64,000 bases of DNA from contig JAKPQA010000005.1 in NCBI GenBank assembly GCA_029547025.1, positions 3,880 to 67,879 of the forward strand. Direction: 5' to 3'. Positions 38,809 to 62,623 of the stretch are shown one piece after another. The position numbers and the translations under genes were made by a program. The notes below the pieces were generated by a model. The model worked only from the letters and a program-made list of their open reading frames with translations. It did no database searches and was not told where the DNA came from. The stretch is from Armatimonadota bacterium (GTDB taxonomy: Bacteria > Armatimonadota > Zipacnadia > UBA1398 > JAKPQA01). How positions within the stretch are numbered: the stretch's first letter is position 1; each line of letters opens with the position of its first letter.

Positions 38809-40176
38809 TCAACGTCCTCCTCTGCCCTCTGCCATCTGCCCTGTGCCTAGCATCCGGCCCAGGGCGGGGTACCGTGTGTGTCCGAGTTCCACGACCTCGG
38901 CCGCGAACCGTCGATACAGCCCAATGGCCGCGGCGGGGGGCAGTCCGGCCTGGCCCAGCGCCGGATGCCTCGTCAGCAACCGATCGTCGGGCAGCCGGGA
39001 GAACTCCGCCACCATGCCCAGCAGGTCCGCGAGGTTGCGGAACCCGTCGGTGCCCCTGTGGCTCTCCGGGTTGCCAAGCAGCTCCATCTGCTGCGCCTCA
39101 GGCCCCACACCAGCCGTGGCGAGGGCCAACTGCCTCTGGAGGCACGGCACGCACCCGCCACATGGCCTCGGGTGCCGCCCGGCTTGCCAGCACGACTCGG
39201 TTCGGCGAATCTCCGCCTCGCTCACCCGCCATCGCAGTATGTCCCGCACGACCTCGGCCTTCGTATGGCCGAGGAGCGGGTTGCCGATCCCGAGGCGGTG
39301 ATCGAGGATCTCCGACGCCACCGACGCGAAGCAAGCCAGGACCTCGGGATGCGTGGTGCGGGTCGACAGCCCGCCCACGCGCGATGGCCCCATGGGCACG
39401 TGCAGCGCCATGATGCCATTCTCGGGCACCACGATCTCTTCGATCCCCGCCGACCACGCCACCCCAGCGGCCAGCGCCAGGTACCAGAGCGATCGGGCCC
39501 GGCGCGACGGCTCCCGGTCGCTTCGCGACGGGAGCACGAACTCGGGCTCCCGGACCCGCGAGACGCCCAGTGACACCCCAATGACCTCGAAGGCGGCACC
39601 GTAGTGGCTGCGCAGCGACCCGACAACACGCCGCTGGGCCTCCAGGGTCGTGGCGTTCGACGAGCGATGCATCACGAACAGCGGCCGCCGCCCTTCCTCC
39701 AACGACGCCACCGCCCCGGCGAACGAGTCGATCCCGCCCGAAAGCAGACTCACGCAGTCCGCCGCGCTCCGCAGCCCCGCCTGGCTCGTGCGGGTTACAC
39801 GGGCGCAGGCCCTTGGCCGGAACTCGAGACGGATGTTGTCCCCCGTCATCAGGTGGAACAGCGAGGTGAGCGCCGGCGCGGCGGCCTCCCAGGTGCCGGG
39901 CAGCCGAACAGGGATGGCGAAGGTGAGCGAGCGGACCCACTGCTCGTTCGCCCCCCGCGGCACCAGGTGATCGCCCATCACCAGCGCCGCGGTGACCTCG
40001 AGCAGGTCCTGCGCCGAGTCGCTGAGCGGTTGAGGGAGCCGGGTCGAGAGCCGATGGAGGTCCAGCTCAACGTTGCGCCGCCGCGACACCCAGTCGAGCA
40101 CCACCACGGGAGGGCCGTTGGCCGGCAGCAGCACGGTCTCATCCCCGTCGGCCCGCACGACTACTCGTGCGTTCAA
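38809..40176 (-). CDS. QueC-like PP-loop ATPase/amidoligase homologue with N- and C-terminal extensions (non-canonical; QatC/Cap9-like architecture)
   Basis: PP-loop SGGIDS lies at about residue 145, not at the N-terminus. QueC-like core segments (RSLWYLALAAG, VVPENGIMALHVP) and a QueC-type zinc motif (C-x9-CGGCVPC-LQR) are present. Start set at the TTG at 40176, overlapping the upstream gene's TGA (TTGA). A GTG alternative lies 15 nt downstream. The first ~260 codons of ORF 38809..40956 are a frame artefact. Confidence 0.6.
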   Translation of the reverse strand: MNARVVVRADGDETVLLPANGPPVVVLDWVSRRRNVELDLHRLSTRLPQPLSDSAQDLLEVTAALVMGDHLVPRGANEQWVRSLTFAIPVRLPGTWEAAAPALTSLFHLMTGDNIRLEFRPRACARVTRTSQAGLRSAADCVSLLSGGIDSFAGAVASLEEGRRPLFVMHRSSNATTLEAQRRVVGSLRSHYGAAFEVIGVSLGVSRVREPEFVLPSRSDREPSRRARSLWYLALAAGVAWSAGIEEIVVPENGIMALHVPMGPSRVGGLSTRTTHPEVLACFASVASEILDHRLGIGNPLLGHTKAEVVRDILRWRVSEAEIRRTESCWQAGRHPRPCGGCVPCLQRQLALATAGVGPEAQQMELLGNPESHRGTDGFRNLADLLGMVAEFSRLPDDRLLTRHPALGQAGLPPAAAIGLYRRFAAEVVELGHTRYPALGRMLGTGQMAEGRGGR

Positions 40177-40874
40177 CCGGGGCCCCCGGCCGCTCGCAGC
40201 CGTTCCAGCGCGCCGGTGATGAGCCCCCGGAGCAGCGGTGCTGGGTCGCCCTGGGGCGCGCCGGCCCACGGGCAGTCGCGGACGGCCTCCGCGCAGACCC
40301 GTTCCGCCGCCTCGACCAGCCGGCATCGGGCCTGAACGTCCGGCAGCCCCGGGGTGCCCACCACATCGGCCGTGTCGCGCGCCACCAGATGCCCGAACAG
40401 TCGCGACAGGTAGTGGGCCGCGAACCACCGGCTGGCATCCTGGTCGGCAGCGCCCGAAGGCTCGAAGCCCGCCGGCCGCGCGGCGTCGCTCCCGGCCAGC
40501 GCCATGGCCGTCAGGAAGGTGGCATCGAGGGCGATCTCGGCCTGACGGCTCGAGTCGCCTTGGGCGGCCAGACTGGCCCGGGCGACCTCGCGGGCTCGGA
40601 CGCCGGCCTCGACGGCCGACTCGATCGAGCCATCGCCTGGGGCCACCGACAGCGCGGCCTGCAGGCATCGGACCACCCCGGGGGCCGACATGGCCTCGAC
40701 GAACTCGGCATCCAGCGCCTGCGCCGCGGCCGAGACCACCCGGACGGCATCGATGGGCGCGCGGCGGTACTGGGCGCGGACCCGTTGCCAGGCCGGGTTC
40801 CGAGGTGATGGGTGAGCCGTCGAGGTGCCCACAGGGCTTCGCCCCCCGGAGCATTGATTGTTGAGGCTGATCAT
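40173..40874 (-). CDS. hypothetical alpha-helical protein translationally coupled to the QueC-like gene
   Basis: 233-aa ORF with high GC3 and no family I recognise. Its stop overlaps the QueC-like start. The start is uncertain: the ATG at 40874 sits directly after a TATACT hexamer, and a GTG alternative lies ~36 nt in. Confidence 0.4.
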   Translation of the reverse strand: MISLNNQCSGGRSPVGTSTAHPSPRNPAWQRVRAQYRRAPIDAVRVVSAAAQALDAEFVEAMSAPGVVRCLQAALSVAPGDGSIESAVEAGVRAREVARASLAAQGDSSRQAEIALDATFLTAMALAGSDAARPAGFEPSGAADQDASRWFAAHYLSRLFGHLVARDTADVVGTPGLPDVQARCRLVEAAERVCAEAVRDCPWAGAPQGDPAPLLRGLITGALERLRAAGGPG

Positions 40875-41131
40875 AGTATACGAACACCAGTACGGCTATG
40901 AAGTCACCTTTTGCAGCGATAGGTATATACCTTTGCCTGGAGGGCCTCCGTGGCACCTCTGCACCCGCGGAGAAGGCCCTTACCGGCCCTTACCATTTCG
41001 CGCCCGTCCGGCGGCCCGGAGGAGCCCGGGCTTGGCCAGTTGTGTAGGGCGATGGGGACGAAAAGGGGCCATTTGGGGGAGTGAAGTGGCCATATGAGCA
41101 TATAAGCTTACCTGTGACGCCGGTCGGGCCC

Positions 41132-42304
41132 CTACTCGGCGTTCAGCGCCGCGAAGGTCTGCAGCTTCCAGAACAGGTCCACCGAGTCGAGGAGCGCCGT
41201 TGAGAGATCGGCCTCGGCGATCCAGTCGCCCTGGTCTGCGGCGGCCTTCAGGGCATCCACCTTGGTCAGCAGCTCCATCACCCGCGGCTCCAGCGCCTGG
41301 CCGTCATCGGCGGCCAGGGCCAGCAGGTTCAGCGCATCGGTGCGGAGCTGGTTCGGCTGCAGACCGCGGACGGGCTCGGGGCGGAAGTCGGCCTTGCTGA
41401 GTGCAACCTGATCGGCCGCGCCGTGGTCCCTCAGATACGCCTCGGCGTCGGCGTTGGTCTTCCCCGTGAAGTCATACAGCGCCAGCCGCGCCTGGCCGGC
41501 TTCCGGCTTGAGGTTCAGCGTCGTCTGCACCGCGTAGTTGCCGATGGAGACACTCCCGCCCGCGATGCCCGCCGGGTCGAGCACCACCGCACACGGGCCG
41601 TCGCCCTCGCCCTTGGCCACGTCGAACACGGCGTCATAGTAGTACAGGAAGGTGTCCTCTCCCGGCTGGACCTCCACCGTCGAGGGCTCCTTCTGGTCGA
41701 TGCGCGGCGTCCTGCAGTGCCGCTCGCCCTGCCGGTGCCGGGCGGCGGTGAAGAAGCTTGGGTAGCACGTGAGCTGCAGGCTGATGGATTGCACCGTGGC
41801 ACCCTCGCGGGGCTTCCAGACGACGTCCGCATCGACGTGGTTCTCGCCGCCCAGCATCATCAGACGGAGGCCCACGTCGGCATCCGGGTGCGCCCAGATG
41901 ACCTGGAACGATCCCCGCGGGCCGCGCTCGAGCACGCGCACATCGCGCAGGTCGCAAACGGTGGCGTCGGAGCCGTTGACCATGACGCGCAGGAACCCGC
42001 CCCAGTACCAGTTGGCGCTGGAGGGGGAGGGCATGCCGAAGTTGCCCTCGGAACACGGGTGTTTTCCGTCGTGCGAGGGATCCTGGCAGCCGGCGATCAG
42101 GAACGCGTAGTTGGCGGCCCCGGACTGGAGCGAGATGGTCCGTTTGGCGATGGGGTGCCCGGCCGTGCACTCCCAGGTGGCCGGCGTGATGGCGGCGCCG
42201 GTGTCGGACACGTCCACCCGGGGCGGTTCATCGGCACCAGGCGCCGGGCCGGCGAGGAGGGGGAGTGCGAGGGCCACCAGTCGTACGCATCGGTCGGGAC
42301 TCAT
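41132..42304 (-). CDS. secreted hypothetical protein
   Basis: Start trimmed to the ATG at 42304 (MSPDRCVRLVALALPLLAGPAPGADE, a signal peptide), which has a GGGAGG Shine-Dalgarno and lies 3 nt after the upstream stop. The 5' 180 codons of the ORF are a frame artefact. Confidence 0.5.
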   Translation of the reverse strand: MSPDRCVRLVALALPLLAGPAPGADEPPRVDVSDTGAAITPATWECTAGHPIAKRTISLQSGAANYAFLIAGCQDPSHDGKHPCSEGNFGMPSPSSANWYWGGFLRVMVNGSDATVCDLRDVRVLERGPRGSFQVIWAHPDADVGLRLMMLGGENHVDADVVWKPREGATVQSISLQLTCYPSFFTAARHRQGERHCRTPRIDQKEPSTVEVQPGEDTFLYYYDAVFDVAKGEGDGPCAVVLDPAGIAGGSVSIGNYAVQTTLNLKPEAGQARLALYDFTGKTNADAEAYLRDHGAADQVALSKADFRPEPVRGLQPNQLRTDALNLLALAADDGQALEPRVMELLTKVDALKAAADQGDWIAEADLSTALLDSVDLFWKLQTFAALNAE

Positions 42305-47191: not shown

Positions 47192-47854
47192 ATGGCCCCG
47201 AACCATCTCCGGGCGATCGCCTTCGACTTCGACGGTACGCTGGTGCGCCTCACCATCGACTTCGCGCGCATGCGTCGGGACGTGATGGGCGTCCTCGCGT
47301 CCTACGGGGTTCATGACCCGAGTGTGCTGAGTTTGTACGTGCTGGAGATGGTGGACGCCGCGGCGGCGCAGCTGGTCGCGCGGGGGCGCGATCCCGCACC
47401 GATGCGAGCGGAGGCCCACGCGGCCCTGGAGGCGGTCGAATGCGAGGCCGCCCGCCGCGCGCGCCCGATTCCGGGAGCTCGGGGGATGCTCGAGGCCCTT
47501 CGCCAGAAGGGCTACGGTCTGGCCGTCGTGACGCGGAATTCGGGCCGGTCGGCTCGCACCGCCTTCGAGGGTGTCGAGAGTCTGGTGGACGCCTTCCTGC
47601 CGCGCGAGGCGGTGTGCCACGTCAAGCCTCATCCGGAACACCTGGGGCGTTGTCTCGATTTGCTGGGTGTCCGGCCGGATGAGGCCCTGATGGTGGGCGA
47701 CCACCCCATGGATGTCCGTTCGGGTAAGGCCCAGGGCATGATGACGGCGGGTGTGCTGACCGGCAACTCATCGCGCGAGGACCTGGCATCGGCCGAGCCC
47801 GACTGGATCCTCGATGACGTCACTGGTCTGCTGCGGGTGTTGTTCGAGCCATGA
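47192..47854 (+). CDS. HAD-superfamily hydrolase (phosphatase)
   Basis: Motif I IAFDFDGTL and a C-terminal GDHPMD motif. Start at the ATG at 47192, with a GGGAG Shine-Dalgarno. Its stop overlaps the next start (ATGA). Confidence 0.65.
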   Translation: MAPNHLRAIAFDFDGTLVRLTIDFARMRRDVMGVLASYGVHDPSVLSLYVLEMVDAAAAQLVARGRDPAPMRAEAHAALEAVECEAARRARPIPGARGMLEALRQKGYGLAVVTRNSGRSARTAFEGVESLVDAFLPREAVCHVKPHPEHLGRCLDLLGVRPDEALMVGDHPMDVRSGKAQGMMTAGVLTGNSSREDLASAEPDWILDDVTGLLRVLFEP

Positions 47855-48867
47855 GCGGTCCCTTCGCTCCCGGCAAGCTGCCGCTGTCGCTGATGCGCGG
47901 CCTGCTTGAGTCGGTGCGGCGGGACGATCCGCGCGTCATGGTCGGGCCACGGATCGGGGAGGACGCGGCGGTGCTGGACTTCGGCGATCGCTACCTGGTC
48001 GCCAAGACCGACCCCATCACGTTTGCCACGGACGAGATCGGCTACTACGCCGTCACGGTCAATGCCAATGACATCGCCACACGCGGCGCCACGCCCCGCT
48101 GGTTCCTGGCGTGCGTCCTGCTTCCCGAGGGGCGCACCGATGCGGCGTTCGTGGAGCGCATCTTTGGTCAGGTCTCCTCTGCGTGCGACGCACTGGGCAT
48201 TGTTCCGGTGGGCGGGCATACGGAGGTGACGGCGGGGCTCGATCGTCCGGTCATTGCCGGGGCGATGCTTGGCGAGGTGGCGCGCGAGCGTCTGGTGTCC
48301 ACGTCGGGTCTGCGCGTGGGCGACCATGTGGTGCTCACCAAGTCGGTTCCGCTGGAGGGCGCGTCAGTCCTGGCGCGGGAGAAGCGCGTGGAGTTGCTGG
48401 CGGCCGGACTGGCGCCGGGCGATCTGGATGTCGCTGCTGGGTTCCTCCATGACCCGGGCATCAGCGTGGTCCGCGATGCCCAGGTGGCCGTGGAGGCGGG
48501 CGGAGTCACGGCGATGCATGATCCGACTGAGGGCGGCGTGGCTACGGCGTTGGTCGAGATGGCGCTGGCGGCGGGCGTGGGGCTGCGGGTGGCGCGGGGT
48601 CGCATCCCGGTGGATCCCCGGGCCGCATTGCTGTGCGCGCATTTGGGGATCGATCCGCTCGGCACCCTCTCCTCGGGGGCCCTGTTGATCGGAGTGGAGC
48701 CCGACCGCGTCGCGGACGTGATGCGGGCCCTGACTGCGAGCGGCATCCCGGCGGCCGACGTCGGCAGGGCCGTTGGTGCCTCGGAGGGAATGCTGTATGA
48801 GGCGGACGATGGCAGCACGGAGCCTGTTCTCGCGTTCGAGCAGGACGAGATTGCCCGTGTTCTGTGA
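47851..48867 (+). CDS. PurM-superfamily (AIR-synthase-related) protein, ThiL/HypE-like ATP-dependent enzyme
   Basis: A GEDAAVL motif, a (V)NANDIATRGATPRW segment, and a two-domain PurM-like length of 338 aa. It is translationally coupled on both sides. Confidence 0.6.
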   Translation: MSGPFAPGKLPLSLMRGLLESVRRDDPRVMVGPRIGEDAAVLDFGDRYLVAKTDPITFATDEIGYYAVTVNANDIATRGATPRWFLACVLLPEGRTDAAFVERIFGQVSSACDALGIVPVGGHTEVTAGLDRPVIAGAMLGEVARERLVSTSGLRVGDHVVLTKSVPLEGASVLAREKRVELLAAGLAPGDLDVAAGFLHDPGISVVRDAQVAVEAGGVTAMHDPTEGGVATALVEMALAAGVGLRVARGRIPVDPRAALLCAHLGIDPLGTLSSGALLIGVEPDRVADVMRALTASGIPAADVGRAVGASEGMLYEADDGSTEPVLAFEQDEIARVL

Positions 48868-49682
48868 GAGGTGGAGGTAGCTCGGTGGAGTTGGCTGAGG
48901 AGCGTCAGCGGCTCGCGGTGATTGGCGGGAGTGGGGTGACGGACTTCCTGCCCGAGGAGCCCGGAGAGGAGGAGATTGTCCCCACGCCCTATGGCGATGC
49001 CTTGCTGATCTGGAAGCTCTACATGGGCCGGCGCGTGGTGTTCGTGCCGCGTCATGGTCCGGGGCACCGTCTCCCGCCGCATCGGGTGAACTACCGCGCC
49101 AACATCTGGGCCCTGGACCTGGTGGGTGTTCATAGCGTTCTGGCCACGGGCGCCGTTGGGAGCCTGGTGGAGGACATTGACCCGGGCGCCGTGGTGTTCG
49201 TGGACCAGTTTCTGGACTTCACCAAGAACCGCCCGTCCACGTTTTTCGAGGGCGAGAACGGGCGGGTGCTGCACACGGACGTGTCGGTGCCCTATTGCCC
49301 GCGGATTCGCCAGATTGCGGCTCGGACGGCGGCCGAGATGCAGATGGACCACCGGCCGGCGGGCACGTACGTTTGCGTGGAGGGACCGCGCTATGAGTGT
49401 CCGGCGGAGATTCGCATGTTCACCATGCTCGGCGGCCACGTGGTGGGTATGACCAATCTGCCGGAGGCGGTGCTGGCCCGGGAACTGGGTCTGTGCTATG
49501 CCACGGTCGCCGTGGTCACCAACAAGGCAGCGGGGCTGATCGCGCAGCCCATCAGCCATGAGGAGGTCCTGGGCACGATGCGGCGGGTGACGCCAACCAT
49601 CGACCAGTTCATGGCGCGGATGATGGAGCAGATCGATGACGACCCCACGTGCGTGTGCCGGCGGGTGCGGGACGATGAGTGA
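48864..49682 (+). CDS. mtnP: S-methyl-5'-thioadenosine phosphorylase (PNP family 2)
   Basis: LAVIGGSG and HRLPPHRVNYRANIWAL motifs. GTG start overlapping the upstream stop (GTGA). Confidence 0.75.
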   Translation: MRGGGSSVELAEERQRLAVIGGSGVTDFLPEEPGEEEIVPTPYGDALLIWKLYMGRRVVFVPRHGPGHRLPPHRVNYRANIWALDLVGVHSVLATGAVGSLVEDIDPGAVVFVDQFLDFTKNRPSTFFEGENGRVLHTDVSVPYCPRIRQIAARTAAEMQMDHRPAGTYVCVEGPRYECPAEIRMFTMLGGHVVGMTNLPEAVLARELGLCYATVAVVTNKAAGLIAQPISHEEVLGTMRRVTPTIDQFMARMMEQIDDDPTCVCRRVRDDE

Positions 49683-50748
49683 CTCGGGGAGCGGTGGCGG
49701 GTTCGAGACCATCGCGTGGGGCGGGGACCATGTGCGTCTGATTGACCAGACGCTGCTGCCGGCCGAGTACCGCATCGTTGAGCTGCGCACGGTTCCCGAG
49801 ATCTGCGAGGCGATCCGGGTGCTGCGCGTTCGCGGTGCGCCGGCCATCGGCTGCGCCGCCGCTTACGGGCTGGCGCTGCGGGCGGTTCATGGCCCGGAAG
49901 CGACGCCTGAGGAGCTTCTGCCCGGTCTGGAGTCGGCCGCGCGCGAACTGGCCGCTACACGGCCCACGGCCGTGAATCTGTTTTGGGCGATTGACCGCAT
50001 CATGTCGCTCGCGGGCGGCCGTTCGTGGTCGTCGTTGGATGAGCTGCGGCAGGCCCTGGTGGATGACGCGCGGTCCATTCAGGCGGAGGACGACGCCGCG
50101 TGCCGGGCCATCGGCGCTTATGGTGCCGGGCTGCTGCCGGACCCGTGCCGAATCCTGACGCACTGCAATGCGGGGGGCCTGGCGACCAGTGGATATGGTA
50201 CGGCCGTGGGGGTGATTCGCGCGGCGCACGAGCAGGGGAAGCGTGTTCGCGTCTGGGTTGACGAGACCCGGCCGCTGCTTCAGGGCGCGCGGCTGACGGC
50301 GTGGGAGCTGTCGCAGCTGGAGATCCCGGCGACGCTCATCACCGATAGCATGGCGGCCCATGTGATGGCGAGGGGCCAGGTGGATGCGGTGGTCGTCGGC
50401 GCCGACCGCATCGCGGCCAATGGGGATGTGGCAAACAAGATTGGCACTCAGGGCGTTGCCATACTGGCGGAATATTTCGGCGTGCCCTTCTATGTGGCCG
50501 CGCCCCTGTCGACCGTGGATCTCTCGCTGCCCACGGGGGCGGGTATCCCGATCGAGGAGCGATCGGCGGACGAGGTGACGACGCCACGGGGGACGCGGTT
50601 CGCCCCCGAGCTGACGGCAACACTGACGGTGTACAACCCGGCTTTCGACGTGACCCCGGCTCATCTGATCCGGGCGATTGTCACCGAGAAGGGCGTGCTC
50701 CATCCGCCCTACGGACCGGCGTTGGCGCGGTGGGCGGGATCCAAGTAG
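49675..50748 (+). CDS. mtnA: S-methyl-5-thioribose-1-phosphate isomerase (eIF-2B-related family)
   Basis: eIF2B/MtnA family motifs (VRGAPAIG, HCNAGGLAT, GADRIAANGDVANKIGT). Start at the ATG at 49675, overlapping the mtnP stop by 8 nt. Confidence 0.8.
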   Translation: MSDSGSGGGFETIAWGGDHVRLIDQTLLPAEYRIVELRTVPEICEAIRVLRVRGAPAIGCAAAYGLALRAVHGPEATPEELLPGLESAARELAATRPTAVNLFWAIDRIMSLAGGRSWSSLDELRQALVDDARSIQAEDDAACRAIGAYGAGLLPDPCRILTHCNAGGLATSGYGTAVGVIRAAHEQGKRVRVWVDETRPLLQGARLTAWELSQLEIPATLITDSMAAHVMARGQVDAVVVGADRIAANGDVANKIGTQGVAILAEYFGVPFYVAAPLSTVDLSLPTGAGIPIEERSADEVTTPRGTRFAPELTATLTVYNPAFDVTPAHLIRAIVTEKGVLHPPYGPALARWAGSK

Positions 50749-50761
50749 AGGAGCGGCAGAC

Positions 50762-51565
50762 GTGGAGTTGCGTGCGGACATAGGGGTCTTTGGTGGTTCG
50801 GGGTTCTACGAGTTCGCCGAGGACCTTCGCGAGACCAAGATCGAGACACCTTACGGTGCCACGAGCGATCCGGTGGCCCTGGGCACTGTGGGGGGCCGGC
50901 GGGTGGCTTTCCTGCCGCGGCATGGCAAGGACCACCGGCTGCCTCCCCACATGATCAACTACCGTGCCAACGTGTGGGCCATGAAGTCGCTGGGTGTGCG
51001 GCGCATTATCAGTCCCACGGCCGCGGGCAGCCTGCAGGCCCATATCAAGCCCGGCGAGTTTGTCATCGTGGACCAGTTCGTCGATCGCACGTCGGGTCGG
51101 AAGGACACGTTCTACGACGGCCCGGTGACGACGCACATCGCCGGTGCCGAGCCGTACTGCCCCCAGCTTCGCGCCCAGGCGGTGCGGTGTGCGGCGGAGC
51201 TGGGGATTCCGTGTCACGATGGCGGCACGGTGGTGGTGGTCCAGGGCCCGCGTTTCTCGACCAAGGCCGAGAGCCGCTGGTTCACCAGCAATGGCTGGCA
51301 GGTCATTAACATGACTCAGTACCCCGAGGTTGTCTTGGCCCGGGAACTCGAGATGTGCTATCAGGCCATTGCGCTGATCACGGACTTCGACGCGGGCGTT
51401 GTGGCTGAGGGGGAGGCTCAGCCCGTGAGTGCCGATGCCTTCCTCGAGGTGTTCCGCGCGAACATTGACAATGCCAAGCGGCTCTGTGAGGCCGTGATCC
51501 GGGCGATCCCCAACGAGCGCACGTGTGCATGTGGGATGGCGCTGCAGGGCGCGCGGCTCGACTAG
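50762..51565 (+). CDS. second PNP/MTAP-family nucleoside phosphorylase paralogue
   Basis: GVFGGSG and HRLPPHMINYRANVWAM motifs. Start at the GTG at 50762, with a GAGGAG Shine-Dalgarno. Confidence 0.7.
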   Translation: MELRADIGVFGGSGFYEFAEDLRETKIETPYGATSDPVALGTVGGRRVAFLPRHGKDHRLPPHMINYRANVWAMKSLGVRRIISPTAAGSLQAHIKPGEFVIVDQFVDRTSGRKDTFYDGPVTTHIAGAEPYCPQLRAQAVRCAAELGIPCHDGGTVVVVQGPRFSTKAESRWFTSNGWQVINMTQYPEVVLARELEMCYQAIALITDFDAGVVAEGEAQPVSADAFLEVFRANIDNAKRLCEAVIRAIPNERTCACGMALQGARLD

Positions 51566-51580
51566 TCTGGGAGGGTGTCG

Positions 51581-52108
51581 TTGGTGGAGGAGCTCGTCGG
51601 CGTCAAGGACCGCATCCGTTCGGTACCGGATTTTCCGGCGCCCGGCATTCTGTTCCGGGATATTACGCCCGTCCTGGGCGCCCCTGAGCTGTTGCGTCAG
51701 TCCGTGGAGGCCCTCACGGGCTATGCGCGATCGCGCCGGGCCGAGGTCATCGCCGGCATCGAGTCGCGGGGGTTCGTGTTCGGTGTTCCGGTCGCCCTGG
51801 CGTTGGGGGTTCCGTTTGTGCCGATCCGCAAGGCGGGTAAGCTTCCGGCGGACACGGTCTCGGCCGAGTATGCGCTGGAGTATGGCACGGCGAAGATCGA
51901 GATGCACCGCGATGCCTTCGGGCCGGGGAGGCGGGTTGTCATCGTCGACGACCTGCTGGCCACCGGCGGGACTGCGGCAGCGGCCGCCCAACTTGTGAGT
52001 CAGCTTGAGGGCGAGGTTGCCGGCATGGCCTTCCTGATTGAGCTGGTGTCGCTGAACGGGCGGTCGCGACTGACGGCGTGGGACGTGGCTTCATTCGTTC
52101 GCTATTAG
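51581..52108 (+). CDS. apt: adenine phosphoribosyltransferase
   Basis: DFPAPGILFRDITP and VIVDDLLATGGT (PRPP-binding) motifs. The start is uncertain, either the TTG at 51581 or the GTG at 51575. Confidence 0.8.
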   Translation: MVEELVGVKDRIRSVPDFPAPGILFRDITPVLGAPELLRQSVEALTGYARSRRAEVIAGIESRGFVFGVPVALALGVPFVPIRKAGKLPADTVSAEYALEYGTAKIEMHRDAFGPGRRVVIVDDLLATGGTAAAAAQLVSQLEGEVAGMAFLIELVSLNGRSRLTAWDVASFVRY

Positions 52109-58148: not shown

Positions 58149-58208
58149 CGCCGGGGCCGTTGCGCCGGCCTGGGTTCGGGCGACGCGGGCGAATCCGCCG
58201 CTCCTCGG

Positions 58209-60023
58209 GTGTTGAACAGCGTGGAGGCGGGGGCAGAGGGCCGTGCTCGTTCCGGGCGGCCGGCCCCGGGGATGACCATGGCACGAGGCAGGCGGCGCGA
58301 GTGGGGCGAGGCGGATGATGACACGCCTGAGCTCGTGATGGGCGAGGACGGGCCGGGCGATGAGTCTCTTGGCCTCGAGACCCAGGTTCAAGCCGCGGCG
58401 ATTGTCGATGAGCTGCTGAGGGCGACGGACGAGAAGGACCCGCGCTGGGGGGCATTGTTCCTCCTTCGGCACCAACTGCGTGTCGATGAGCGGCAGATGG
58501 ATGAGGCTCGGCAGGCCATTGCCGAGCTCCAACAGGCGTATGACAAGCTGACCAGTCCCGCCAATCGCCTGGGTACGTTTTTGGATGCACCCGAGGAAGG
58601 CATTGCGCGTGTGGCGGTTGGCGACACCGAGTATTACGCCAACGTGGATTCTCAGAAGGTGCCGGAGACGCCGGTTCCGGGCGCGTGTGTTCGCCTCAAC
58701 GATGCGTTTGCGGTGGTCGGCGACCTGGGTCCATGGACCAGTGGGCCGCTGACGAAGGTGGCCGAAGTCCTTGCCGACGGGCGGCTGCGGATTGGGACGG
58801 AGCCGGGCGGGCTGGGCAGCCGGATCGTGGTTCGGTCGTCGGCTCTGGACGGCATTGCTTTGCGGCAGGGCGATGAGGTTCGGCTCGACCCCAGCGGGCG
58901 GGTGGCCGTCGAGCATTTCCACCGGGCAGAGACGCGGGACTACTTTTTCGAAGAGGTGCCGGAGACGCCGTGGTCGGCCGTCGGGGGCCAGGAGGATGCC
59001 ATCCGGCTGATCCGGGACACCATCGAGCTGCCTCTCCTGCACCCGGAGCTGTATGAGCGGTTCCACAAGCGTCCGGTCAAGGGCATCCTGCTGTATGGGC
59101 CTCCCGGTTGTGGGAAGACGCTGATCGGACGGGCCACGGCGTACAACCTCACCCGGGAGTACCGGCAGCGTTTCGGGCGCGACGTCAAAGAGTGCTTCAT
59201 GTACATCAGTGGGCCCCGGATCCTCAACATGTGGCTTGGGGAGAGCGAGCGGATGGTCCGCGAGATCTTCGCTGCGGCGCGGGAGCGTGCGGCGGAGGGC
59301 CACCTGGTATTCGTCTTTGTCGACGAAGCCGAGTCGTTGCTCCGCACCCGGAGTGCGGGGCGCACTCTCAACATCGCGAACACCCTGGTGCCCCAGTTCT
59401 CAGCGGAGATGGACGGGATGGTGTCGCTGCAGAACGTTGTGGTGATCCTGACGTCCAATCGGCCCGACTACATCGATCCGGCGATTCTGAGGCCCGAGCG
59501 CATTGACCGGAAGATCAAGATCGGCCGGCCGGACCGGTCCGCGGCGCGTGAGATCTTTCGCATCTACCTCGATGATCGGGTGCCCCTGAGTGCCGAGCTC
59601 GTGGCCGAGCATGGCAGTGATCCGGCGGCGCGCGAGCATCTCCGCGACCAATGCGTGCACCGGATCTTCCGGTCGGTTCGCGAGACGGAGTTCCTCGAGG
59701 TTCACCTGCTGAACGGTCGTACGGACGTGTTGCACTGGCGCGATCTGGTGAGCGGGGCGCTCATCATGTCGGTTGTCGAGCGCGCGAAGGATCTGGCGAT
59801 TCGCCGCGCCATCGAGAAGGGCAACCCCGCCGAGGGGATGCAGTGGGCGGACCTGGAACAGGCCATCGACCTGGAGTTCCGCGAGAACGAGATCTTCCCG
59901 AAGTCTGATGTGGTGGAGGACTGGCTGAAGCTGATCGACTACGAGCCCGAGAACGTGGTCACGGTGAAGCCGATCCGGCCGGATCGGGGCCGCGGTCGGG
60001 CCGCCCGGCATACGGTGATCTAG
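58209..60023 (+). CDS. mpa: proteasome-associated AAA ATPase Mpa/ARC homologue
   Basis: Acidic coiled-coil N-region, an inter-domain OB region, and an AAA module with LLYGPPGCGKTLI Walker A and VFVDE Walker B. Long blocks align with mycobacterial Mpa (FLEV..NG, SGA.I..VVERAK). The C-terminus is ...RAARHTVI, not GQYL. The start is uncertain (GTG at 58209 or ATG at ~58272). Confidence 0.8.
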   Translation: MLNSVEAGAEGRARSGRPAPGMTMARGRRREWGEADDDTPELVMGEDGPGDESLGLETQVQAAAIVDELLRATDEKDPRWGALFLLRHQLRVDERQMDEARQAIAELQQAYDKLTSPANRLGTFLDAPEEGIARVAVGDTEYYANVDSQKVPETPVPGACVRLNDAFAVVGDLGPWTSGPLTKVAEVLADGRLRIGTEPGGLGSRIVVRSSALDGIALRQGDEVRLDPSGRVAVEHFHRAETRDYFFEEVPETPWSAVGGQEDAIRLIRDTIELPLLHPELYERFHKRPVKGILLYGPPGCGKTLIGRATAYNLTREYRQRFGRDVKECFMYISGPRILNMWLGESERMVREIFAAARERAAEGHLVFVFVDEAESLLRTRSAGRTLNIANTLVPQFSAEMDGMVSLQNVVVILTSNRPDYIDPAILRPERIDRKIKIGRPDRSAAREIFRIYLDDRVPLSAELVAEHGSDPAAREHLRDQCVHRIFRSVRETEFLEVHLLNGRTDVLHWRDLVSGALIMSVVERAKDLAIRRAIEKGNPAEGMQWADLEQAIDLEFRENEIFPKSDVVEDWLKLIDYEPENVVTVKPIRPDRGRGRAARHTVI

Positions 60024-60053
60024 CCCGGCGAGTTGGGAAGGGAGCATTCCCTG

Positions 60054-61640
60054 GTGCCTCGAGTGCATGTCAGGCCCCTGATCCCCCTGGGTCACTCACT
60101 GTCGGTGCGGCTCATGGGTACGGAGACCGAGTATGGCATCTACGTTGACGGCGTTGAGCCGGGGGGCCTCGACCAGGAGTCTGCCCGGCTGGTCGAGGCG
60201 GTTCCTCCTCCCTTCGCGGCACGGTGGGACTACTCGGCCGAGACACCCCGGCGGGATCTGCGCGGTTTCACGGTGAACGCGCTGGCGCGCGACGCTCGGG
60301 ATGCCGCCTATGATGCGGCGGTTGGGGAGGCGTCGCGTGCCGCCCCGGCCGACCGCGTTCTGGCCAACGGGTCCCGGCTCTACAACGACCACGCCCATCC
60401 CGAGTACTCGACACCGGAGTGTGCATCGCTTTGGGACCTGGTGGCGCACGAGAAGGCGGGCGAGCAGATCGTGGCCGCTTGCGCCTCCCGGCGGGCCGCG
60501 GACCTGGGCCGCAGGGTGGCGCTGTATAAGAACAATACCGACTTCCATGGCATGAGCTATGGGGCCCACGAGAACTATCTGTTGCCGCGGTCGGTGCCTG
60601 ACGAGGTGTTGCTCGGCGGGCTGTTGCCGTTCCTGGTTTCGCGGCAGGCGTTCGCGGGTGCCGGCAAGGTGGGGGTGGAACGGCACCGAGCTCCGAAGGT
60701 CCGGTATCAGCTCTCGCAGCGGGCCGACTTTTTCGACACCGATGTGGGGGTCGATACGCTGGCCCGGCGCCCCATCGTCAACACGCGCGATGAGCCACAC
60801 ACCGATGCCAGCCAGTACCGCCGGCTGCACGTGATCTGTGGCGATGCGAACTTGAGCGAGTACGCCATGGCGCTCAAGGTGGGGGTCACGGCCCTGGTTC
60901 TGGAGACGCTGGCCGCGGGGCGAGCACCGGCGATTCGGCTGGCCAAGCCGGTCGAGGCGGTGCGGCGGATCTCCTGGGACCCGGCGTTTGAGTACCGAGC
61001 CGAGACGGTTGACGGGGGCCGCCTGACGGCCCTCGAGATCCAGCGGGTCTACCTGGACGCTGCGTCGGCGCTGGAGTTGCCGAGTGGTTCGGAGGGAGAG
61101 TGGGTGCTCCGGCAGTGGGCGGCGATGCTGGACGCACTGGCGACCGATCCGTCGTCTCTGGCCGACCGGATCGACTGGGTGGCGAAGTACTCGATGTTGG
61201 AGTCCTATGCGGCTGGTGAGGCCTCGGGTTGGGAGCCTGAAGTCATGCAGAGCCTGGATCTGGCGTACCATGACCTGGACGCCGAGGCGGGCTTGTTCCG
61301 GGGCCTGGAGCAACAGGATGCCGTCCAGCGCCTGGTGACACTGGGCCAAGTGGCCCGGGCCGTGAGCGCTCCGCCCGGCGACACGAGGGCCGCACTTCGG
61401 GGCCTGTGTGTTCAGCGCTTTGCCTCGCAGATTGAGGCGATCCGTTGGGGCCGCGTGGTGCTGTCGCTGAACGGCAGCTTGTGGGCGTTCGACATGGAGG
61501 ACCTGGTGGAAGGGGTGCCACCGGGACTTCTGGAGGCGTTGTCGGGTGTTGGGACACTGGAGGAGCTTGCAGCCCTGGTGGCTCGACGGGATGGTGGACG
61601 CGATGGCGGAGATGAAGCGCTGGCCGGTGGCGGGGTGTGA
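60054..61640 (+). CDS. dop: Pup deamidase/depupylase Dop (Dop/PafA family)
   Basis: N-terminal GTETEYGI motif and DHAHPEYSTPEC motif. Its length of over 500 aa is longer than a PafA. Start options are the GTG at 60054 (GAAGGGAG Shine-Dalgarno), the TTG at 60033, or the ATG at 60114. Confidence 0.75.
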   Translation: MPRVHVRPLIPLGHSLSVRLMGTETEYGIYVDGVEPGGLDQESARLVEAVPPPFAARWDYSAETPRRDLRGFTVNALARDARDAAYDAAVGEASRAAPADRVLANGSRLYNDHAHPEYSTPECASLWDLVAHEKAGEQIVAACASRRAADLGRRVALYKNNTDFHGMSYGAHENYLLPRSVPDEVLLGGLLPFLVSRQAFAGAGKVGVERHRAPKVRYQLSQRADFFDTDVGVDTLARRPIVNTRDEPHTDASQYRRLHVICGDANLSEYAMALKVGVTALVLETLAAGRAPAIRLAKPVEAVRRISWDPAFEYRAETVDGGRLTALEIQRVYLDAASALELPSGSEGEWVLRQWAAMLDALATDPSSLADRIDWVAKYSMLESYAAGEASGWEPEVMQSLDLAYHDLDAEAGLFRGLEQQDAVQRLVTLGQVARAVSAPPGDTRAALRGLCVQRFASQIEAIRWGRVVLSLNGSLWAFDMEDLVEGVPPGLLEALSGVGTLEELAALVARRDGGRDGGDEALAGGGV

Positions 61641-61806
61641 GCGGCAGCAGAGACCGCCCGGACCGCGGGAGCCGTGGCAGCGTGGTGAGGACGACGGCCC
61701 GTCTCGGCCCGATGTTCAGCGGCCGGATACGCAGGAGTTGCTGCGGCGAATGCGCCGGGTGGACCCGCGCCAGGCGCGACGGTATCGGCAGCGGAGCGGG
61801 CAGTAG
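61591..61806 (+). CDS. candidate divergent pup (highly uncertain): basic ORF ending ...RRYRQRSGQ, overlapping the dop 3' end
   Basis: This is the only ORF in the dop-prcB gap frame that ends in Gly-Gln immediately (7 nt) before prcB. No start codon exists after the dop stop, so it would have to begin inside dop. Its composition is basic, unlike acidic canonical Pup. Confidence 0.15.
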   Translation: MVDAMAEMKRWPVAGCERQQRPPGPREPWQRGEDDGPSRPDVQRPDTQELLRRMRRVDPRQARRYRQRSGQ

Positions 61807-61810
61807 CCGC

Positions 61811-62623
61811 ATGGGGGAGGGGCGAAGGGTGGATGCGGGGATGCCGGCGGCTTCGGGTGACTTCATGCTGCTGTTGCAGCGCGGTGCTCCGCCGGGCGCG
61901 AGCATGCCGTGGTGCGGTGCCGACCCCCGTGTGGGGCGTCTCGAACCCGCGGGGGCGGCGCATGGTACCACGGTGCTGGCGCTCAAGTATCGAGATGGCG
62001 TGGTGAACGTGGGTGACCGCCGGGCGACGGCGGAGAACCTGGTGCTGTACGACCGGGCGGACAAGATCCTGCCGCTGGACGACCATACGCTGATCGCCAT
62101 CAGCGGGTCGTACGCGCGCGCCATGGATGCGGTTCGCTTCCTCCGGCACTCCTTCAACTACTACCGCCGGAGCCAGCTTCAGGAGATGAGTCTCGAGGGG
62201 AAGCTCAACGAAGTGACGCGATTCCTGGTCGGCACGGTACCCGACCTCCTCCAGGGTCAAGGTTATGTGGTGCCGCTGATCAGCGCTTTTGATGTGAGTG
62301 CGGACGCGGGACGGGTTTTCTTCTTCGATGTGGCCGGTGCGCGGTTCGAGACGGCGGAGTTTGGCGCCGCGGGGTCGGGGTCGCACCGCATTCGCGGCGC
62401 CTTCGATTACATCGTGAAGACCAAGGGCCCGTTTCACGAGATGGCGCTGCACGAGGTATTGCGTGAGGCGCTGGTGTTGTTGGACATCGCTGCCGAGCTT
62501 GATGCGGCCACCGGTGGTCTGCAGAAGGTGTTGCCGAGCGTGAAGACGGTGACCCGCGAGGGCATCCGGGAGATGGAGGAGGCCGAGCTGGCCGAGGTCG
62601 TTGGGCAGCTTGGGGCGAGCTGA
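61811..62623 (+). CDS. prcB: 20S proteasome beta subunit with propeptide
   Basis: HGTTVLALKYRDGVVNVGDRRAT places the Thr-1 active site after a ~57-aa propeptide. Start at the ATG at 61811, or possibly the upstream ATG at 61712 in the same frame. Confidence 0.8.
   Translation: MGEGRRVDAGMPAASGDFMLLLQRGAPPGASMPWCGADPRVGRLEPAGAAHGTTVLALKYRDGVVNVGDRRATAENLVLYDRADKILPLDDHTLIAISGSYARAMDAVRFLRHSFNYYRRSQLQEMSLEGKLNEVTRFLVGTVPDLLQGQGYVVPLISAFDVSADAGRVFFFDVAGARFETAEFGAAGSGSHRIRGAFDYIVKTKGPFHEMALHEVLREALVLLDIAAELDAATGGLQKVLPSVKTVTREGIREMEEAELAEVVGQLGAS

What the first reader, a model, noticed from the sequence alone, without database searches (positions are those of the whole stretch)
38809..40874. Orphan QueC-like enzyme with N- and C-terminal extensions, translationally coupled to an unknown helical protein
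The 455-aa protein has the PP-loop (SGGIDS) and the C-terminal C-x9-CGxCxxC zinc motif of 7-cyano-7-deazaguanine synthase QueC, but the PP-loop sits ~140 residues in and a ~90-aa tail follows the zinc motif. No queD/queE/queF/folE/tgt genes are nearby. The neighbours are secreted CAZymes. QueC-like proteins outside queuosine biosynthesis (QatC of QatABCD, Cap9 of type IV CBASS) have been reported to conjugate 7-deazaguanine derivatives to a partner protein in anti-phage systems. Here the upstream 233-aa protein shares a TTGA stop/start overlap with the QueC-like gene and could be such a partner. No ATPase, TatD-like or TGT-like component is present, so this may be a minimal or new variant rather than a known Qat/CBASS layout.
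Basis: partly seen in the sequence, partly recalled or inferred. Interest (0 to 1): 0.65.

Follow-up and report, generated by a model that had tools for sequence, protein, structure and literature searches.

The report
Natural two-gene QatB–QatC module
This is not an orphan queuosine enzyme: it is a stripped-down, two-gene relative of the QatABCD anti-phage system, in which a QueC-like ligase sits next to a small helical protein that carries the N-terminal "MGTS" tag site, and the pair is conserved across dozens of Armatimonadota genomes without the usual ATPase and nuclease partners.

Summary
Window 38809-40176 (-) encodes a 455-aa PP-loop/zinc protein. It overlaps the upstream ORF by TTGA.

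The enzyme is a QatC-family protein (PADLOC QatC 5e-58; NCBIfam QatC 1.5e-61, below the equivalog cut-off). Its AF2 model matches the solved P. aeruginosa QatC over its full length (TM 0.70-0.75). The N- and C-terminal extensions are normal for QatC.

The upstream protein most likely starts at GTG 40832 (219 aa). That start gives MGTSTAHPSPRNPAW, which is the QatB acceptor motif. Its helical body matches neither QatB HMMs nor the solved QatB fold.

In 56 Armatimonadota/Zipacnadia/WS1 genomes the same pair recurs. None has QatA or QatD within up to 10 kb, whereas 23 canonical loci found by the same scan have all four genes. The pair is under purifying selection and often sits at a fixed chromosomal site among housekeeping genes.

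Most likely mechanism, by analogy and not shown here: QatC-like ATP-dependent conjugation of a 7-deazaguanine carboxylate to Gly2 of the partner.

Verdict: a new variant of a known kind. Interest is moderate.

The parts
38809..40176 (-). QatC-family QueC-like PP-loop ligase, 455 aa from TTG 40176 (449 aa if from GTG 40158); the stop codon is included
   Evidence: PADLOC QatC 5.2e-58. NCBIfam NF041925 QatC 1.5e-61, 208.5 bits, against a cut-off of 280. PDB QatC 9zee_B 1.6e-35. The AF2 model (pLDDT 87.5) matches 9y01_B at E 3.8e-21, TM 0.70/0.74, over 468 columns.
39724..39741 (-). PP-loop SGGIDS (residues 146-151), the ATP pyrophosphate-binding motif
   Evidence: Read directly from the sequence. 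It is invariant in both the clade and canonical QatC. The S156A/S161A equivalents abolish defence in P. aeruginosa QatC (PMC13279940).
39346..39363 (-). Active-site loop T272-R-T274-T-H276-P277, equivalent to the QatC-specific T278/T280/HP motif that replaces the Tyr/Asp deazaguanine-binding residues of QueC
   Evidence: Alignment to 9zee_B and group-wise conservation. T272, H276 and P277 are conserved. The T280-equivalent is Thr here but Ser in 82% of the clade.
39142..39192 (-). Zinc motif C329-x9-C339GxC342xxC345, a four-Cys site whose first loop is 10 residues shorter than in canonical QatC
   Evidence: The canonical pattern is C(x)19CGxCxxRR (PMC13329287).
40173..40832 (-). QatB-like partner protein, 219 aa from GTG 40832. 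It has a short N-terminal tail and a nine-helix body
   Evidence: Identical to public protein P0100, 219 aa. The AF2 model has pLDDT 93.4 and 9 helices. A homologous ORF lies immediately upstream of the QatC-like gene in 58 of the 63 clade loci held, including the window. Of the other five, four are cut at a contig end and L047 has the same ORF with a CTG start. dN/dS is 0.21 against the closest relative.
40788..40832 (-). N-terminal acceptor motif MGTSTAHPSPRNPAW (Gly2, Thr3, Ser4, Ser9, Pro10, Trp15)
   Evidence: G2, T3, S4, S9, P10 and W15 are invariant in alignment A2. Canonical QatB begins MGTS...P-x-W (PMC13279940, PMC13639016).
40173..40176 (-). TTGA stop/start overlap between the two genes (possible translational coupling)
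   Evidence: The closest relative, L091, has GTGA at the same position. A 4-nt overlap occurs in 15 clade loci, and most of the others lie within -11 to +8 nt.
40875..40902 (-). Promoter-like site (TTCATA, 16 nt, TATACT) in the lower-GC spacer upstream of the pair
   Evidence: 1 site found against 0.1 expected. This is a consensus match only, not evidence of function.

Best explanation
The two genes form a self-contained QatB-QatC-type module.

The 455-aa protein is a QatC-family PP-loop enzyme. By analogy with QueC, Cap9 and QatC, it uses ATP to adenylate a carboxylate, most likely 7-carboxy-7-deazaguanine. It then transfers the acyl group to the free alpha-amine of Gly2 of the co-translated 219-aa partner, after removal of the initiator Met. 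[quoted passage not shown] The partner probably docks on the QatC C-terminal helical extension and threads its MGTS...P..W tail into the active site.

The tagged or untagged partner is the functional output. In characterised systems a QatBC pair alone restricts some dsDNA phages, so anti-phage defence is the default reading for the biological role.

This lineage works without the KAP-family ATPase QatA and the TatD nuclease QatD. Its partner has a helical body that is not recognisably QatB.

Shown here:
- family membership of the enzyme;
- the acceptor motif, conservation and tight linkage of the partner;
- absence of QatA and QatD;
- purifying selection on both genes.

Inferred:
- complex formation;
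- the chemistry;
- the defence role.
For: Enzyme:
- QatC HMMs give 5e-58 and 1.5e-61, against 3.8e-8 for Pfam QueC and 22 bits (cut-off 150) for TIGR00364 QueC.
- The best PDB sequence hits are QatC chains.
- The full-length fold matches 9y01_B/9y02_B, including both extensions.
- QatC signature residues are conserved: D57, D69/R74/W80/R82, SGGxDS, R226/R228, E252-N-G, T272/T274, H276-P277, T305-K306 and four Cys (motif list from PMC13329287 and PMC13279940).

Partner:
- The N-terminus is MGTS with invariant G2/T3/S4/S9/P10/W15. This is the same extreme N-terminus as canonical QatB.
- It lies immediately upstream in 58 of the 63 clade loci held, including the window. Four of the other five are cut at a contig end; L047 has the same ORF with a CTG start.
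- A natural fusion of an MGTS partner to a QatC-like enzyme exists (P0070).
- QatB-like and QatC-like divergence are tightly correlated (Spearman 0.82).
- dN/dS is 0.21 for the partner and 0.27 for the enzyme.

Layout:
- My QatA and QatD HMMs hit all canonical loci that are not cut short at a contig end, but none of the 56 clade loci and nothing in the 64-kb window.
- The clade and the canonical QatC sequences are reciprocally monophyletic.

Literature:
- QatBC alone defends against lambda-vir (PMC13279940).
- QatB G2D abolishes defence (PMC13279940, PMC13639016).
- An NDG-modified GTSKAY N-terminal peptide of E. coli QatB was seen by LC-MS/MS (PMC13639016).
Against: - No biochemical evidence exists for this pair.
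- Its pre-helix tail is about 12 residues, against 30-90 in canonical QatB.
- The QatC score is below NCBI's equivalog cut-off.
- The zinc loop is 10 residues shorter than in canonical QatC, and the T280-equivalent is Ser in most of the clade. The acyl substrate could therefore differ; even for canonical QatC the reaction is not reconstituted in vitro (PMC13279940).
- The context argues against a typical defence island. Neighbours are housekeeping and CAZyme genes with no PADLOC hits. In 25 species the pair sits at one syntenic site.
- Whether the genome makes 7-carboxy-7-deazaguanine could not be checked.
Confidence: 0.7

Rival explanations
1. Same chemistry, different biology. The pair is a resident regulatory protein-modification switch of Armatimonadota, in which N-terminal tagging of a helical signalling or regulatory protein controls a cellular response. 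It would not be a phage-defence system.
For: - The pair lies among housekeeping and CAZyme genes with no defence or mobile genes.
- In 25 species-level genomes it occupies the same site next to GNAT, rotamase and PGA_cap genes, and QatC divergence tracks GNAT divergence (Spearman 0.62). This suggests long vertical inheritance.
- The partner body occurs fused to a LexA-like S24 peptidase (L024, L032, P0194). One instance is fused to an ECF sigma factor (P0170).
- No nuclease or ATPase effector is present.
Against: - The only experimental data for QatBC pairs are anti-phage (PMC13279940, PMC13434339).
- The pair evolves faster than its neighbours: median identity 47% and 41% against 61-68%. This is as expected for immune genes.
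- Related modules with the same partner family sit in mobile islands (L088 with a recombinase and Prim-Pol; an integrase lies near L091).
- The sigma fusion rests on one short-read contig.
Confidence: 0.2
2. Same architecture, different acyl donor. The QatC-like enzyme attaches something other than a 7-deazaguanine carboxylate to Gly2 of the partner.
For: - QatC replaces the Tyr/Asp deazaguanine-recognition pair of QueC and Cap9 with Thr/Thr. CDG was not seen bound and activity was not reconstituted (PMC13279940). Another group writes of an 'unidentified molecule' as the first substrate (PMC13376578).
- In this clade the second Thr is mostly Ser, and the zinc loop is shortened.
- No que genes lie between window 12165 and 60023.
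Against: - LC-MS/MS found NDG on the E. coli QatB N-terminal peptide (PMC13639016).
- The pocket residues shared with canonical QatC are otherwise conserved.
- que genes need not be linked to the pair.
Confidence: 0.25
3. A decaying remnant of a qatABCD operon that has lost qatA and qatD and is no longer functional.
For: QatA and QatD are absent. The QatC score is below the NCBIfam equivalog cut-off.
Against: - Both ORFs are intact in 56 genomes.
- dN/dS is 0.21-0.27, similar to a neighbouring gene at 0.19.
- All catalytic motifs are retained.
- The clade is monophyletic and old, with within-clade identity down to 29%.
- Engineered QatBC-only operons are functional (PMC13279940).
Confidence: 0.03
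4. A genuine 7-cyano-7-deazaguanine synthase (QueC) of queuosine/preQ0 biosynthesis, as public annotations of its homologues state.
For: Pfam QueC hit 3.8e-8. Several homologues are labelled '7-cyano-7-deazaguanine synthase' by their sources.
Against: - TIGR00364 QueC scores 22 bits against a cut-off of 150.
- The segments that carry VPxRN and YPDC in canonical QueC read VPENG and STRTTHP here (motif list from PMC13329287).
- No que neighbours occur here or in homologous loci.
- Canonical QatC fails to complement an E. coli queC deletion (PMC13329287).
Confidence: 0.02

Closest known systems
QatABCD anti-phage system (Gao et al. 2020); QatB-QatC core complex of P. aeruginosa and E. coli (PDB 9Y01/9Y02, 9ZEE, 9VLK)
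   Same: - The enzyme is a QatC-family QueC-like protein with the same N- and C-terminal extensions, PP-loop, Thr-x-Thr-x-His-Pro loop and four-Cys zinc site.
- The partner gene lies immediately upstream and overlaps.
- The partner starts MGTS followed by a Pro/Trp motif.
- An engineered QatBC-only operon is sufficient against some phages (PMC13279940).
   Different: - There is no QatA (KAP NTPase) and no QatD (TatD nuclease) within up to 10 kb in any of 56 related genomes, nor anywhere in the 64-kb window.
- QatC identity to canonical sequences is only about 25%, in a separate monophyletic clade, and it scores below NCBI's QatC equivalog cut-off.
- The zinc loop is 10 residues shorter.
- The partner's helical body matches neither QatB HMMs nor the solved QatB fold, and its flexible tail is about 12 residues rather than 30-90.
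- The context is chromosomal, housekeeping and often syntenic, rather than plasmid or defence island.
Type IV CBASS Cap9-CdnD (PDB 9NTO), N-terminal deazaguanylation of a CD-NTase
   Same: A QueC-fold PP-loop enzyme is paired with a protein substrate whose N-terminus is Met-Gly-small-Ser. The presumed ATP-dependent amide formation on Gly2 is the same (PMC13279940; bioRxiv 10.1101/2025.04.06.647259).
   Different: - Cap9 is a minimal enzyme of about 185 aa that keeps QueC's Tyr/Asp pocket. Here the enzyme is 455 aa with the QatC pocket, and the match to Cap9 is weak (E 0.018; Foldseek TMq 0.31).
- No CD-NTase, Cap10 (TGT-like) or effector gene is present.
[quoted passage not shown]
   Same: The Rossmann-like PP-loop core and the C-terminal zinc-binding Cys cluster.
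   Different: - The QueC catalytic signature is not recognisable: the VPxRN and YPDC segments read VPENG and STRTTHP.
- There are an extra 140-aa N-terminal and a 110-aa C-terminal domain.
- It is not in a que operon, and it scores far below the TIGR00364 cut-off.

Membership tests
QatC (Qat anti-phage QueC-like protein) | Significant match to curated QatC profiles, stronger than to QueC profiles | tested here: met
   PADLOC QatC 5.2e-58 against QueC 5.2e-6. NCBIfam QatC 1.5e-61 against TIGR00364 7.9e-5. PDB QatC chains 1.6e-35.
QatC (Qat anti-phage QueC-like protein) | Score above NCBIfam NF041925 equivalog cut-off (280 bits) | tested here: not met
   208.5 bits. Clade members score 130-220 bits on my canonical QatC HMM, against 290-410 for canonical loci.
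QatC (Qat anti-phage QueC-like protein) | QueC core plus the QatC-specific N-terminal beta/alpha domain and C-terminal three-helix extension | tested here: met
   The AF2 model (pLDDT 87.5) aligns to 9y01_B/9y02_B over 464-468 columns, TM 0.70-0.75, E 4e-21.
QatC (Qat anti-phage QueC-like protein) | Signature residues: D63, D(x)4R...WxR, SGGxDS, RxRxxxF/Y, ExG, T278/T280, HP, P(x)4TK and the four-Cys zinc site (PMC13329287, PMC13279940) | tested here: met
   D57, D69/R74/W80/R82 (spacing x5, not x7), S146-S151, R226/R228/Y232, E252/G254, T272/T274, H276/P277, P300/T305/K306, C329/C339/C342/C345. Deviations: the zinc loop is x9 rather than x19; DxW is DxI; Q349 replaces the second Arg of the RR.
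qatABCD system | Operon also encodes QatA (KAP-family NTPase, PF07693) and QatD (TatD nuclease, PF01026) | tested here: not met
   My QatA and QatD HMMs, built from three annotated operons, find both proteins in every canonical locus not cut short at a contig end. They find nothing in the window or in 56 clade loci. Pfam and PADLOC scans of the neighbours are negative. The rest of the genome could not be searched.
QatB (Qat system associated protein, QatC substrate) | Encoded immediately upstream of qatC on the same strand, with tight or overlapping junction | tested here: met
   TTGA overlap at 40173-40176. The arrangement is conserved in the clade.
QatB (Qat system associated protein, QatC substrate) | Extreme N-terminus MGTS with essential Gly2, followed by conserved Pro/Trp about 10-18 residues in | tested here: met
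   MGTSTAHPSPRNPAW from GTG 40832. G2/T3/S4/S9/P10/W15 are invariant in 25 sequences. Canonical loci show MGTS...P-x-W.
QatB (Qat system associated protein, QatC substrate) | Long disordered N-terminal tail (30-90 aa) before the helical domain | tested here: not met
   In the AF2 model the first helix starts at residue 13, and pLDDT exceeds 90 from about residue 10.
QatB (Qat system associated protein, QatC substrate) | Helical body homologous to QatB, by sequence profile or fold | tested here: not met
QatB (Qat system associated protein, QatC substrate) | Forms a 1:1 complex with QatC and is modified at Gly2 | not testable with these tools
   This needs co-expression, pull-down and MS, or a multimer structure prediction. 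Indirect support comes from co-divergence (rho 0.82) and a natural fusion (P0070).
Canonical QueC (TIGR00364 / PF06508 cluster 1) | Catalytic signature YxQxHxxE, VPxRN, YPDC, and a score above the TIGR00364 cut-off | tested here: not met
   22.3 bits against a cut-off of 150.3. The segments that carry VPxRN and YPDC in canonical QueC read VPENG and STRTTHP here. YxQxHxxE was not checked separately.
Type IV CBASS (Cap9/Cap10/CD-NTase) | A minimal Cap9 of about 185 aa next to a CD-NTase (PF18144) and a TGT-like Cap10 | tested here: not met
   The enzyme is 455 aa. Its Cap9 match is E 0.018. No CD-NTase or TGT lies among the neighbours.

The most novel reading that the evidence does not exclude
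The MGTS-tailed helical protein belongs to a large partner family distinct from QatB at HMMER level: 473 clusters at 50% identity, including an MGH-tailed branch. It pairs with QatC-like ligases in many architectures: alone, fused to the ligase, fused to a LexA-like S24 peptidase or to an ECF sigma factor, or with unknown accessory genes.

On this reading, N-terminal nucleobase tagging by QueC-like enzymes is a general, modular protein-modification switch. In Armatimonadota it would be a vertically inherited chromosomal fixture that works with no nuclease or ATPase, and possibly has a regulatory rather than purely anti-phage output.
Probability: 0.2. Interest if true: 0.85.

Novelty: new variant of a known kind. 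Interest (0 to 1): 0.55.

Why it matters
Three 2026 structural papers showed that an engineered QatBC pair is the minimal functional core of qatABCD. How the tagged QatB stops phage, and what QatA and QatD add, remain open questions.

This locus, with about 56 related genomes, shows that nature runs QatBC-only modules as stable, selected units. What is conserved between them and canonical systems is the enzyme and the MGTS...P..W acceptor tail. The partner's body is not recognisably conserved.

This has three consequences:
- It points to the N-terminal tag site as the defining feature of QatC substrates.
- It may account for part of the roughly two thirds of QatC-cluster genes that a recent survey found without qatA/qatD neighbours (PMC13329287).
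- It offers a simpler two-protein system for working out the chemistry and the output.

It also flags a systematic misannotation: several homologues are labelled '7-cyano-7-deazaguanine synthase' in public records.

Tried and rejected
- **Partner as annotated QatB.** No hit in NCBIfam, PADLOC or Pfam, nor in PDB sequences. I therefore relied on the N-terminal motif, synteny and modelling.
- **Profile-profile comparison of clade and canonical QatB.** Weak (42.6%), and the global mode was worse. Neither proves nor excludes homology.
- **A riboswitch (e.g. preQ1) upstream.** None found. The only Rfam hit near the region is a sub-threshold COG3860 RNA match at 41321-41366, E 0.45.
- **A third conserved gene in the clade.** All-against-all clustering of flanking ORFs found only QatB-like and QatC-like genes in all loci. 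A convergent GNAT, a rotamase and a PGA_cap gene recur in 25, 14 and 12 of 58 loci and look like lineage synteny.
- **Cultured hosts for the variant.** The unannotated plasmid hits I inspected in S. meliloti and Ralstonia turned out to be canonical qatABCD.
- **Phage copies.** There are only two distant Listeria phage hits, which I did not pursue.
- **Genome-wide presence of folE/queD/queE, or of QatA/QatD elsewhere.** Not testable; only the 64-kb window and flanks of up to 10 kb were available.
Full report
**1. The observation**

On the minus strand, window 38809-40176 translates to a 455-aa protein. It has the PP-loop SGGIDS at residues 146-151 and a C329-x9-C339-G-x-C342-x-x-C345 cluster, followed by 110 more residues.

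The upstream ORF 40173-40874 is 233 aa from its first ATG. Its TGA overlaps a TTG of the downstream frame, giving TTGA at 40173-40176.

Two details change.

First, the upstream gene almost certainly starts at the internal GTG at 40832, giving 219 aa:
- The public record for the identical protein uses that start (P0100, 'hypothetical protein, Armatimonadota bacterium').
- Every homologue begins there.
- The only promoter-like site in the region (TTCATA-16-TATACT, 40902-40875, minus strand; 1 found against 0.1 expected) would start transcription downstream of the ATG.

Second, the start of the enzyme is ambiguous. It is either the overlapping TTG or a GTG 18 nt downstream (449 aa, P0001). The closest relative has GTGA at the overlapping position. 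Across the family the junction is mostly -11 to +8 nt, with a 4-nt overlap the commonest single class.

**2. The enzyme is a QatC**

Pfam sees only a weak QueC match (3.8e-8). QatC profiles match strongly:
- PADLOC QatC 5.2e-58.
- NCBIfam NF041925 1.5e-61. At 208.5 bits this is below the 280-bit equivalog cut-off, whereas TIGR00364 QueC gets 22 bits against a cut-off of 150.
- The best PDB sequences are QatC chains 9ZEE_B and 9VLK_A (1.6e-35), with Cap9 far behind (0.018).

An AlphaFold2 model built on 28 homologues (pLDDT 87.5) matches the P. aeruginosa QatC of the QatB-QatC crystal structures 9Y01/9Y02. The match has E 4e-21 and TM 0.70-0.75 over about 465 columns, so it includes both extensions. 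Cap9 and QueC align only to the core (TMq 0.3).

They are required for defence and for QatB binding (PMC13279940).

A group-wise alignment covered 55 clade sequences and 23 canonical sequences. It shows the published QatC signature residues conserved in both groups (motifs from PMC13329287 and PMC13279940):
- D57;
- D69/R74/W80/R82;
- SGGxDS;
- R226/R228;
- E252-N-G;
- T272 and H276-P277;
- T305-K306;
- the four cysteines.

The differences are a zinc loop 10 residues shorter (x9, not x19), Ser instead of Thr at the T280-equivalent in 82% of the clade (Thr in this window), and a shorter spacer in the D...R...WxR motif.

**3. The partner**

The 219-aa protein hits nothing in Pfam, NCBIfam, PADLOC or PDB sequences. 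From the GTG start, however, its N-terminus reads MGTSTAHPSPRNPAW.

Canonical QatB proteins begin MGTS and carry a conserved Pro-x-Trp a few residues on. Gly2 and that segment are essential for defence, and the tail inserts into the QatC active site (PMC13279940, PMC13639016).

I recovered 22 canonical QatB sequences from annotated and unannotated qatABCD loci, and 21 of them show this motif.

The partner's AF2 model is confident (pLDDT 93.4) and shows nine helices after a tail of about 12 residues.

The helical body is not recognisably QatB:
- My canonical QatB HMM hits none of 206 members of the partner family, even at E<=10.
- hhalign between the two family alignments gives 42.6% probability (E 2.5e-4) over 83 columns. 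These columns centre on a shared hydrophobic-R-x-x-D-x-G segment.

I therefore call it QatB-like. It has the same position, the same acceptor tail and presumably the same role. Its body is either diverged beyond detection or different.

**4. Conservation and layout**

A scan of one genome per species (GTDB) with the enzyme alignment returned 78 loci. I built HMMs for QatA, QatB, QatC and QatD from three annotated plasmid operons and ran them over all ORFs of all loci. The result is a clean split.

- **Canonical group.** Twenty-three loci from Bacillota, Verrucomicrobiota, Chloroflexota, Pseudomonadota and others are canonical qatABCD. All four proteins are found wherever the contig end does not cut the operon short, and QatC scores 290-410 bits.
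- **Clade group.** Fifty-six loci, nearly all Armatimonadota, 'Candidatus Zipacnadia' or candidate division WS1, have QatC-like proteins scoring 130-220 bits. They show no QatA, no QatD and no canonical QatB within flanks of up to 10 kb. Median flanks are about 9-10 kb, and 26 loci have at least 5 kb on both sides. The whole 64-kb window gives the same result.

The two groups are reciprocally monophyletic in a midpoint-rooted NJ tree. Between-group identity is 26%.

Of the 63 clade loci held, including the window and duplicate contigs, 58 have an ORF starting MG[TS][ST] immediately upstream of the enzyme gene. Four others are cut at a contig end, and one (L047) has the same ORF with a CTG start.

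Clustering of all flanking ORFs finds no third gene common to the clade.

Against the closest relative (74% identical enzyme, same upstream GH42-like and 390-aa neighbours), dN/dS is 0.21 for the partner, 0.27 for the enzyme and 0.19 for a neighbouring gene. Both genes are therefore under purifying selection and are not remnants.

**5. Genomic context**

Pfam scans of the predicted genes between window 12165 and 60023 find CAZyme-like proteins (GH5-like, RGL11-like, GH42-like, CBM9, glycogen debranching enzyme) and housekeeping genes. The latter include LysRS, GreA, pentose-phosphate enzymes, aconitase, purine/MTA salvage genes and a GGDEF protein.

No que, folE or tgt gene, no mobile-element gene and no PADLOC defence hit was found.

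The pair is somewhat more GC-rich (72-76%) than its surroundings (66-70%). No Rfam element lies upstream.

In 25 species-level genomes the pair sits next to the same convergent GNAT acetyltransferase, often followed by a rotamase and a PGA_cap gene. Among these genomes, median identities are:

| Protein | Median pairwise identity |
|---|---|
| Enzyme (QatC-like) | 47% |
| Partner (QatB-like) | 41% |
| Neighbours (GNAT, rotamase, PGA_cap) | 61-68% |

Enzyme divergence correlates with partner divergence (rho 0.82) and with GNAT divergence (rho 0.62). This looks like long residence at a fixed chromosomal site with fast, coupled evolution of the two genes. It is unlike the plasmid and transposase-flanked settings of canonical operons.

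**6. Mechanism**

Established for relatives:
- QueC and Cap9 adenylate 7-carboxy-7-deazaguanine. Cap9 transfers it to Gly2 of a CD-NTase (bioRxiv 10.1101/2025.04.06.647259, as summarised in PMC13279940).
- QatB and QatC form a 1:1 complex with the QatB N-terminus in the QatC pocket.
- QatB G2D and QatC PP-loop mutants lose defence.
- QatBC alone protects against lambda-vir (PMC13279940).
- An NDG-modified GTSKAY peptide of E. coli QatB was detected, at low efficiency (PMC13639016).

By inference, the window's enzyme tags Gly2 of its partner in the same way.

Not known, here or anywhere, is how a tagged QatB acts. The acyl donor could differ, given the Thr/Ser pocket and the lack of in vitro reconstitution.

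The defence role is the default reading, but the housekeeping, syntenic context leaves real room for a regulatory role.

**7. Comparison with the literature**

- A QatD-anchored survey lists seven operon forms, 98% of them full qatABCD and none qatBC-only (PMC13434339).
- A PF06508 network study found only about 34% of QatC-cluster genes next to qatA or qatD. It states that qatB occurs at a similar frequency, and leaves the rest unexplained (PMC13329287).
- I found no paper describing natural QatBC-only loci or this partner family.

The present locus is therefore a new variant of a known kind rather than a new kind.

**8. Wider family (seen in passing)**

A profile of the partner family finds 473 clusters at 50% identity (E<=1e-3) in the 1.84-billion-protein library. 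They include a branch starting MGH-x-RLG-x-LPKT-x-x-W.

Three look-ups outside the clade all show a QatC-like gene beside or near the partner:
- a 706-aa enzyme in an island with a serine recombinase and a Prim-Pol gene (L088);
- a tight four-gene cluster with two unknown accessory proteins (L089);
- a more distant arrangement, with the enzyme three genes downstream (L094).

The partner body also occurs in fusions:
- to the enzyme itself (P0070, 715 aa, starting MGTS);
- to a LexA-like S24 peptidase (L024, L032, P0194);
- once, to an ECF sigma factor (P0170).

These fusions are the basis of the more novel reading, to which I give about 20% probability.

Noticed in passing
L024:4073-5383 and L032:4826-6115 (also protein P0194): In two Armatimonadota/Zipacnadia genomes the MGTS partner is extended at its C-terminus by a LexA/UmuD-like Peptidase_S24 domain (436 and 429 aa, E 6e-12 and 2e-13). 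The gene still lies directly upstream of the QatC-like gene.
   Followed up: partly
L094:1924-3252 (protein P0170, 442 aa): The partner-family body is fused to an ECF sigma factor (Sigma70_r2 + r4_2). A TPR/PDZ protein and a 534-aa QatC-like PP-loop protein lie downstream. The N-terminus reads MHMFGPHRSP rather than MGTS. This is a single short-read contig, so an assembly artefact is not excluded.
   Followed up: partly
protein P0070 (715 aa, ENA metagenome): A natural single-chain fusion. It has an MGTS...P..W partner-like N-terminal part of about 290 aa, followed by a QatC-like enzyme (PADLOC QatC 5.7e-64 on residues 299-661).
   Followed up: partly
L088:6001-8897: A partner-family protein starting MGHIYVSSLPRTAHW (the 'MGH' branch, about 259 aa) overlaps a 706-aa QatC-like gene with a long C-terminal extension. 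The pair is flanked by a large serine recombinase and a Prim-Pol/DUF3987 gene, so it is probably a mobile island.
   Followed up: partly
L089:4904-8606: A tight same-strand cluster: 365-aa unknown protein, 223-aa MGTS partner, 426-aa QatC-like enzyme, 209-aa unknown protein. The two flanking proteins have no Pfam or PADLOC hit and may be alternative accessory components replacing QatA and QatD.
   Followed up: partly
25 clade loci, e.g. L019:7735-8637 (-), L029:2791-3222 (-), L034:12882-14057 (-): A convergent GNAT acetyltransferase lies directly downstream of the pair in 25 of 58 loci. A PPIC-type rotamase follows in 14 loci and a PGA_cap gene in 12. This is probably lineage synteny. A functional link between an N-acetyltransferase and an N-terminal tagging system was not tested.
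   Followed up: partly
proteins P0005, P0031, P0033, P0040, P0053 and others: Public sources name clade QatC-like proteins '7-cyano-7-deazaguanine synthase'. This looks like a systematic misannotation, because they fall below NCBI's QatC equivalog cut-off yet still hit PF06508.
   Followed up: no
proteins P0060, P0065, P0072, P0074 (Ruegeria profundi), P0084, P0088: These are QatC-like enzymes of 570-700 aa with a long C-terminal extension. In several it ends in a conserved W-H-G-Y-R-L-N/A-P segment. The partner and context were not examined except for L088.
   Followed up: no
L047:9092-9919: The partner ORF in this genome has CTG (Leu) where all others have ATG or GTG before GTS. This is either a rare CTG start or a sequencing variant.
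   Followed up: no
window 58149-60023 (+): An AAA ATPase with proteasomal-ATPase OB domains (Mpa/ARC-like). The adjacent ORFs at 60024-63408 were not examined and could belong to a proteasome or Pup-like system.
   Followed up: no
window 47818-52108 (+): A run of genes: AIR-synthase-like, two PNP_UDP_1 phosphorylases, an IF-2B-family (MTR-1-P isomerase-like) protein and a phosphoribosyltransferase. It looks like a purine/methylthioadenosine salvage cluster and is unrelated to the finding.
   Followed up: no
window 41132-42301 (-) and L091:3873-5045: A 389-390-aa secreted-looking protein with no Pfam hit lies between the GH42-like gene and the pair, both in the window and in its closest relative (85% identity, dN/dS 0.19). 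The function is unknown. It is probably part of the glycan-utilisation genes and not of the module.
   Followed up: partly
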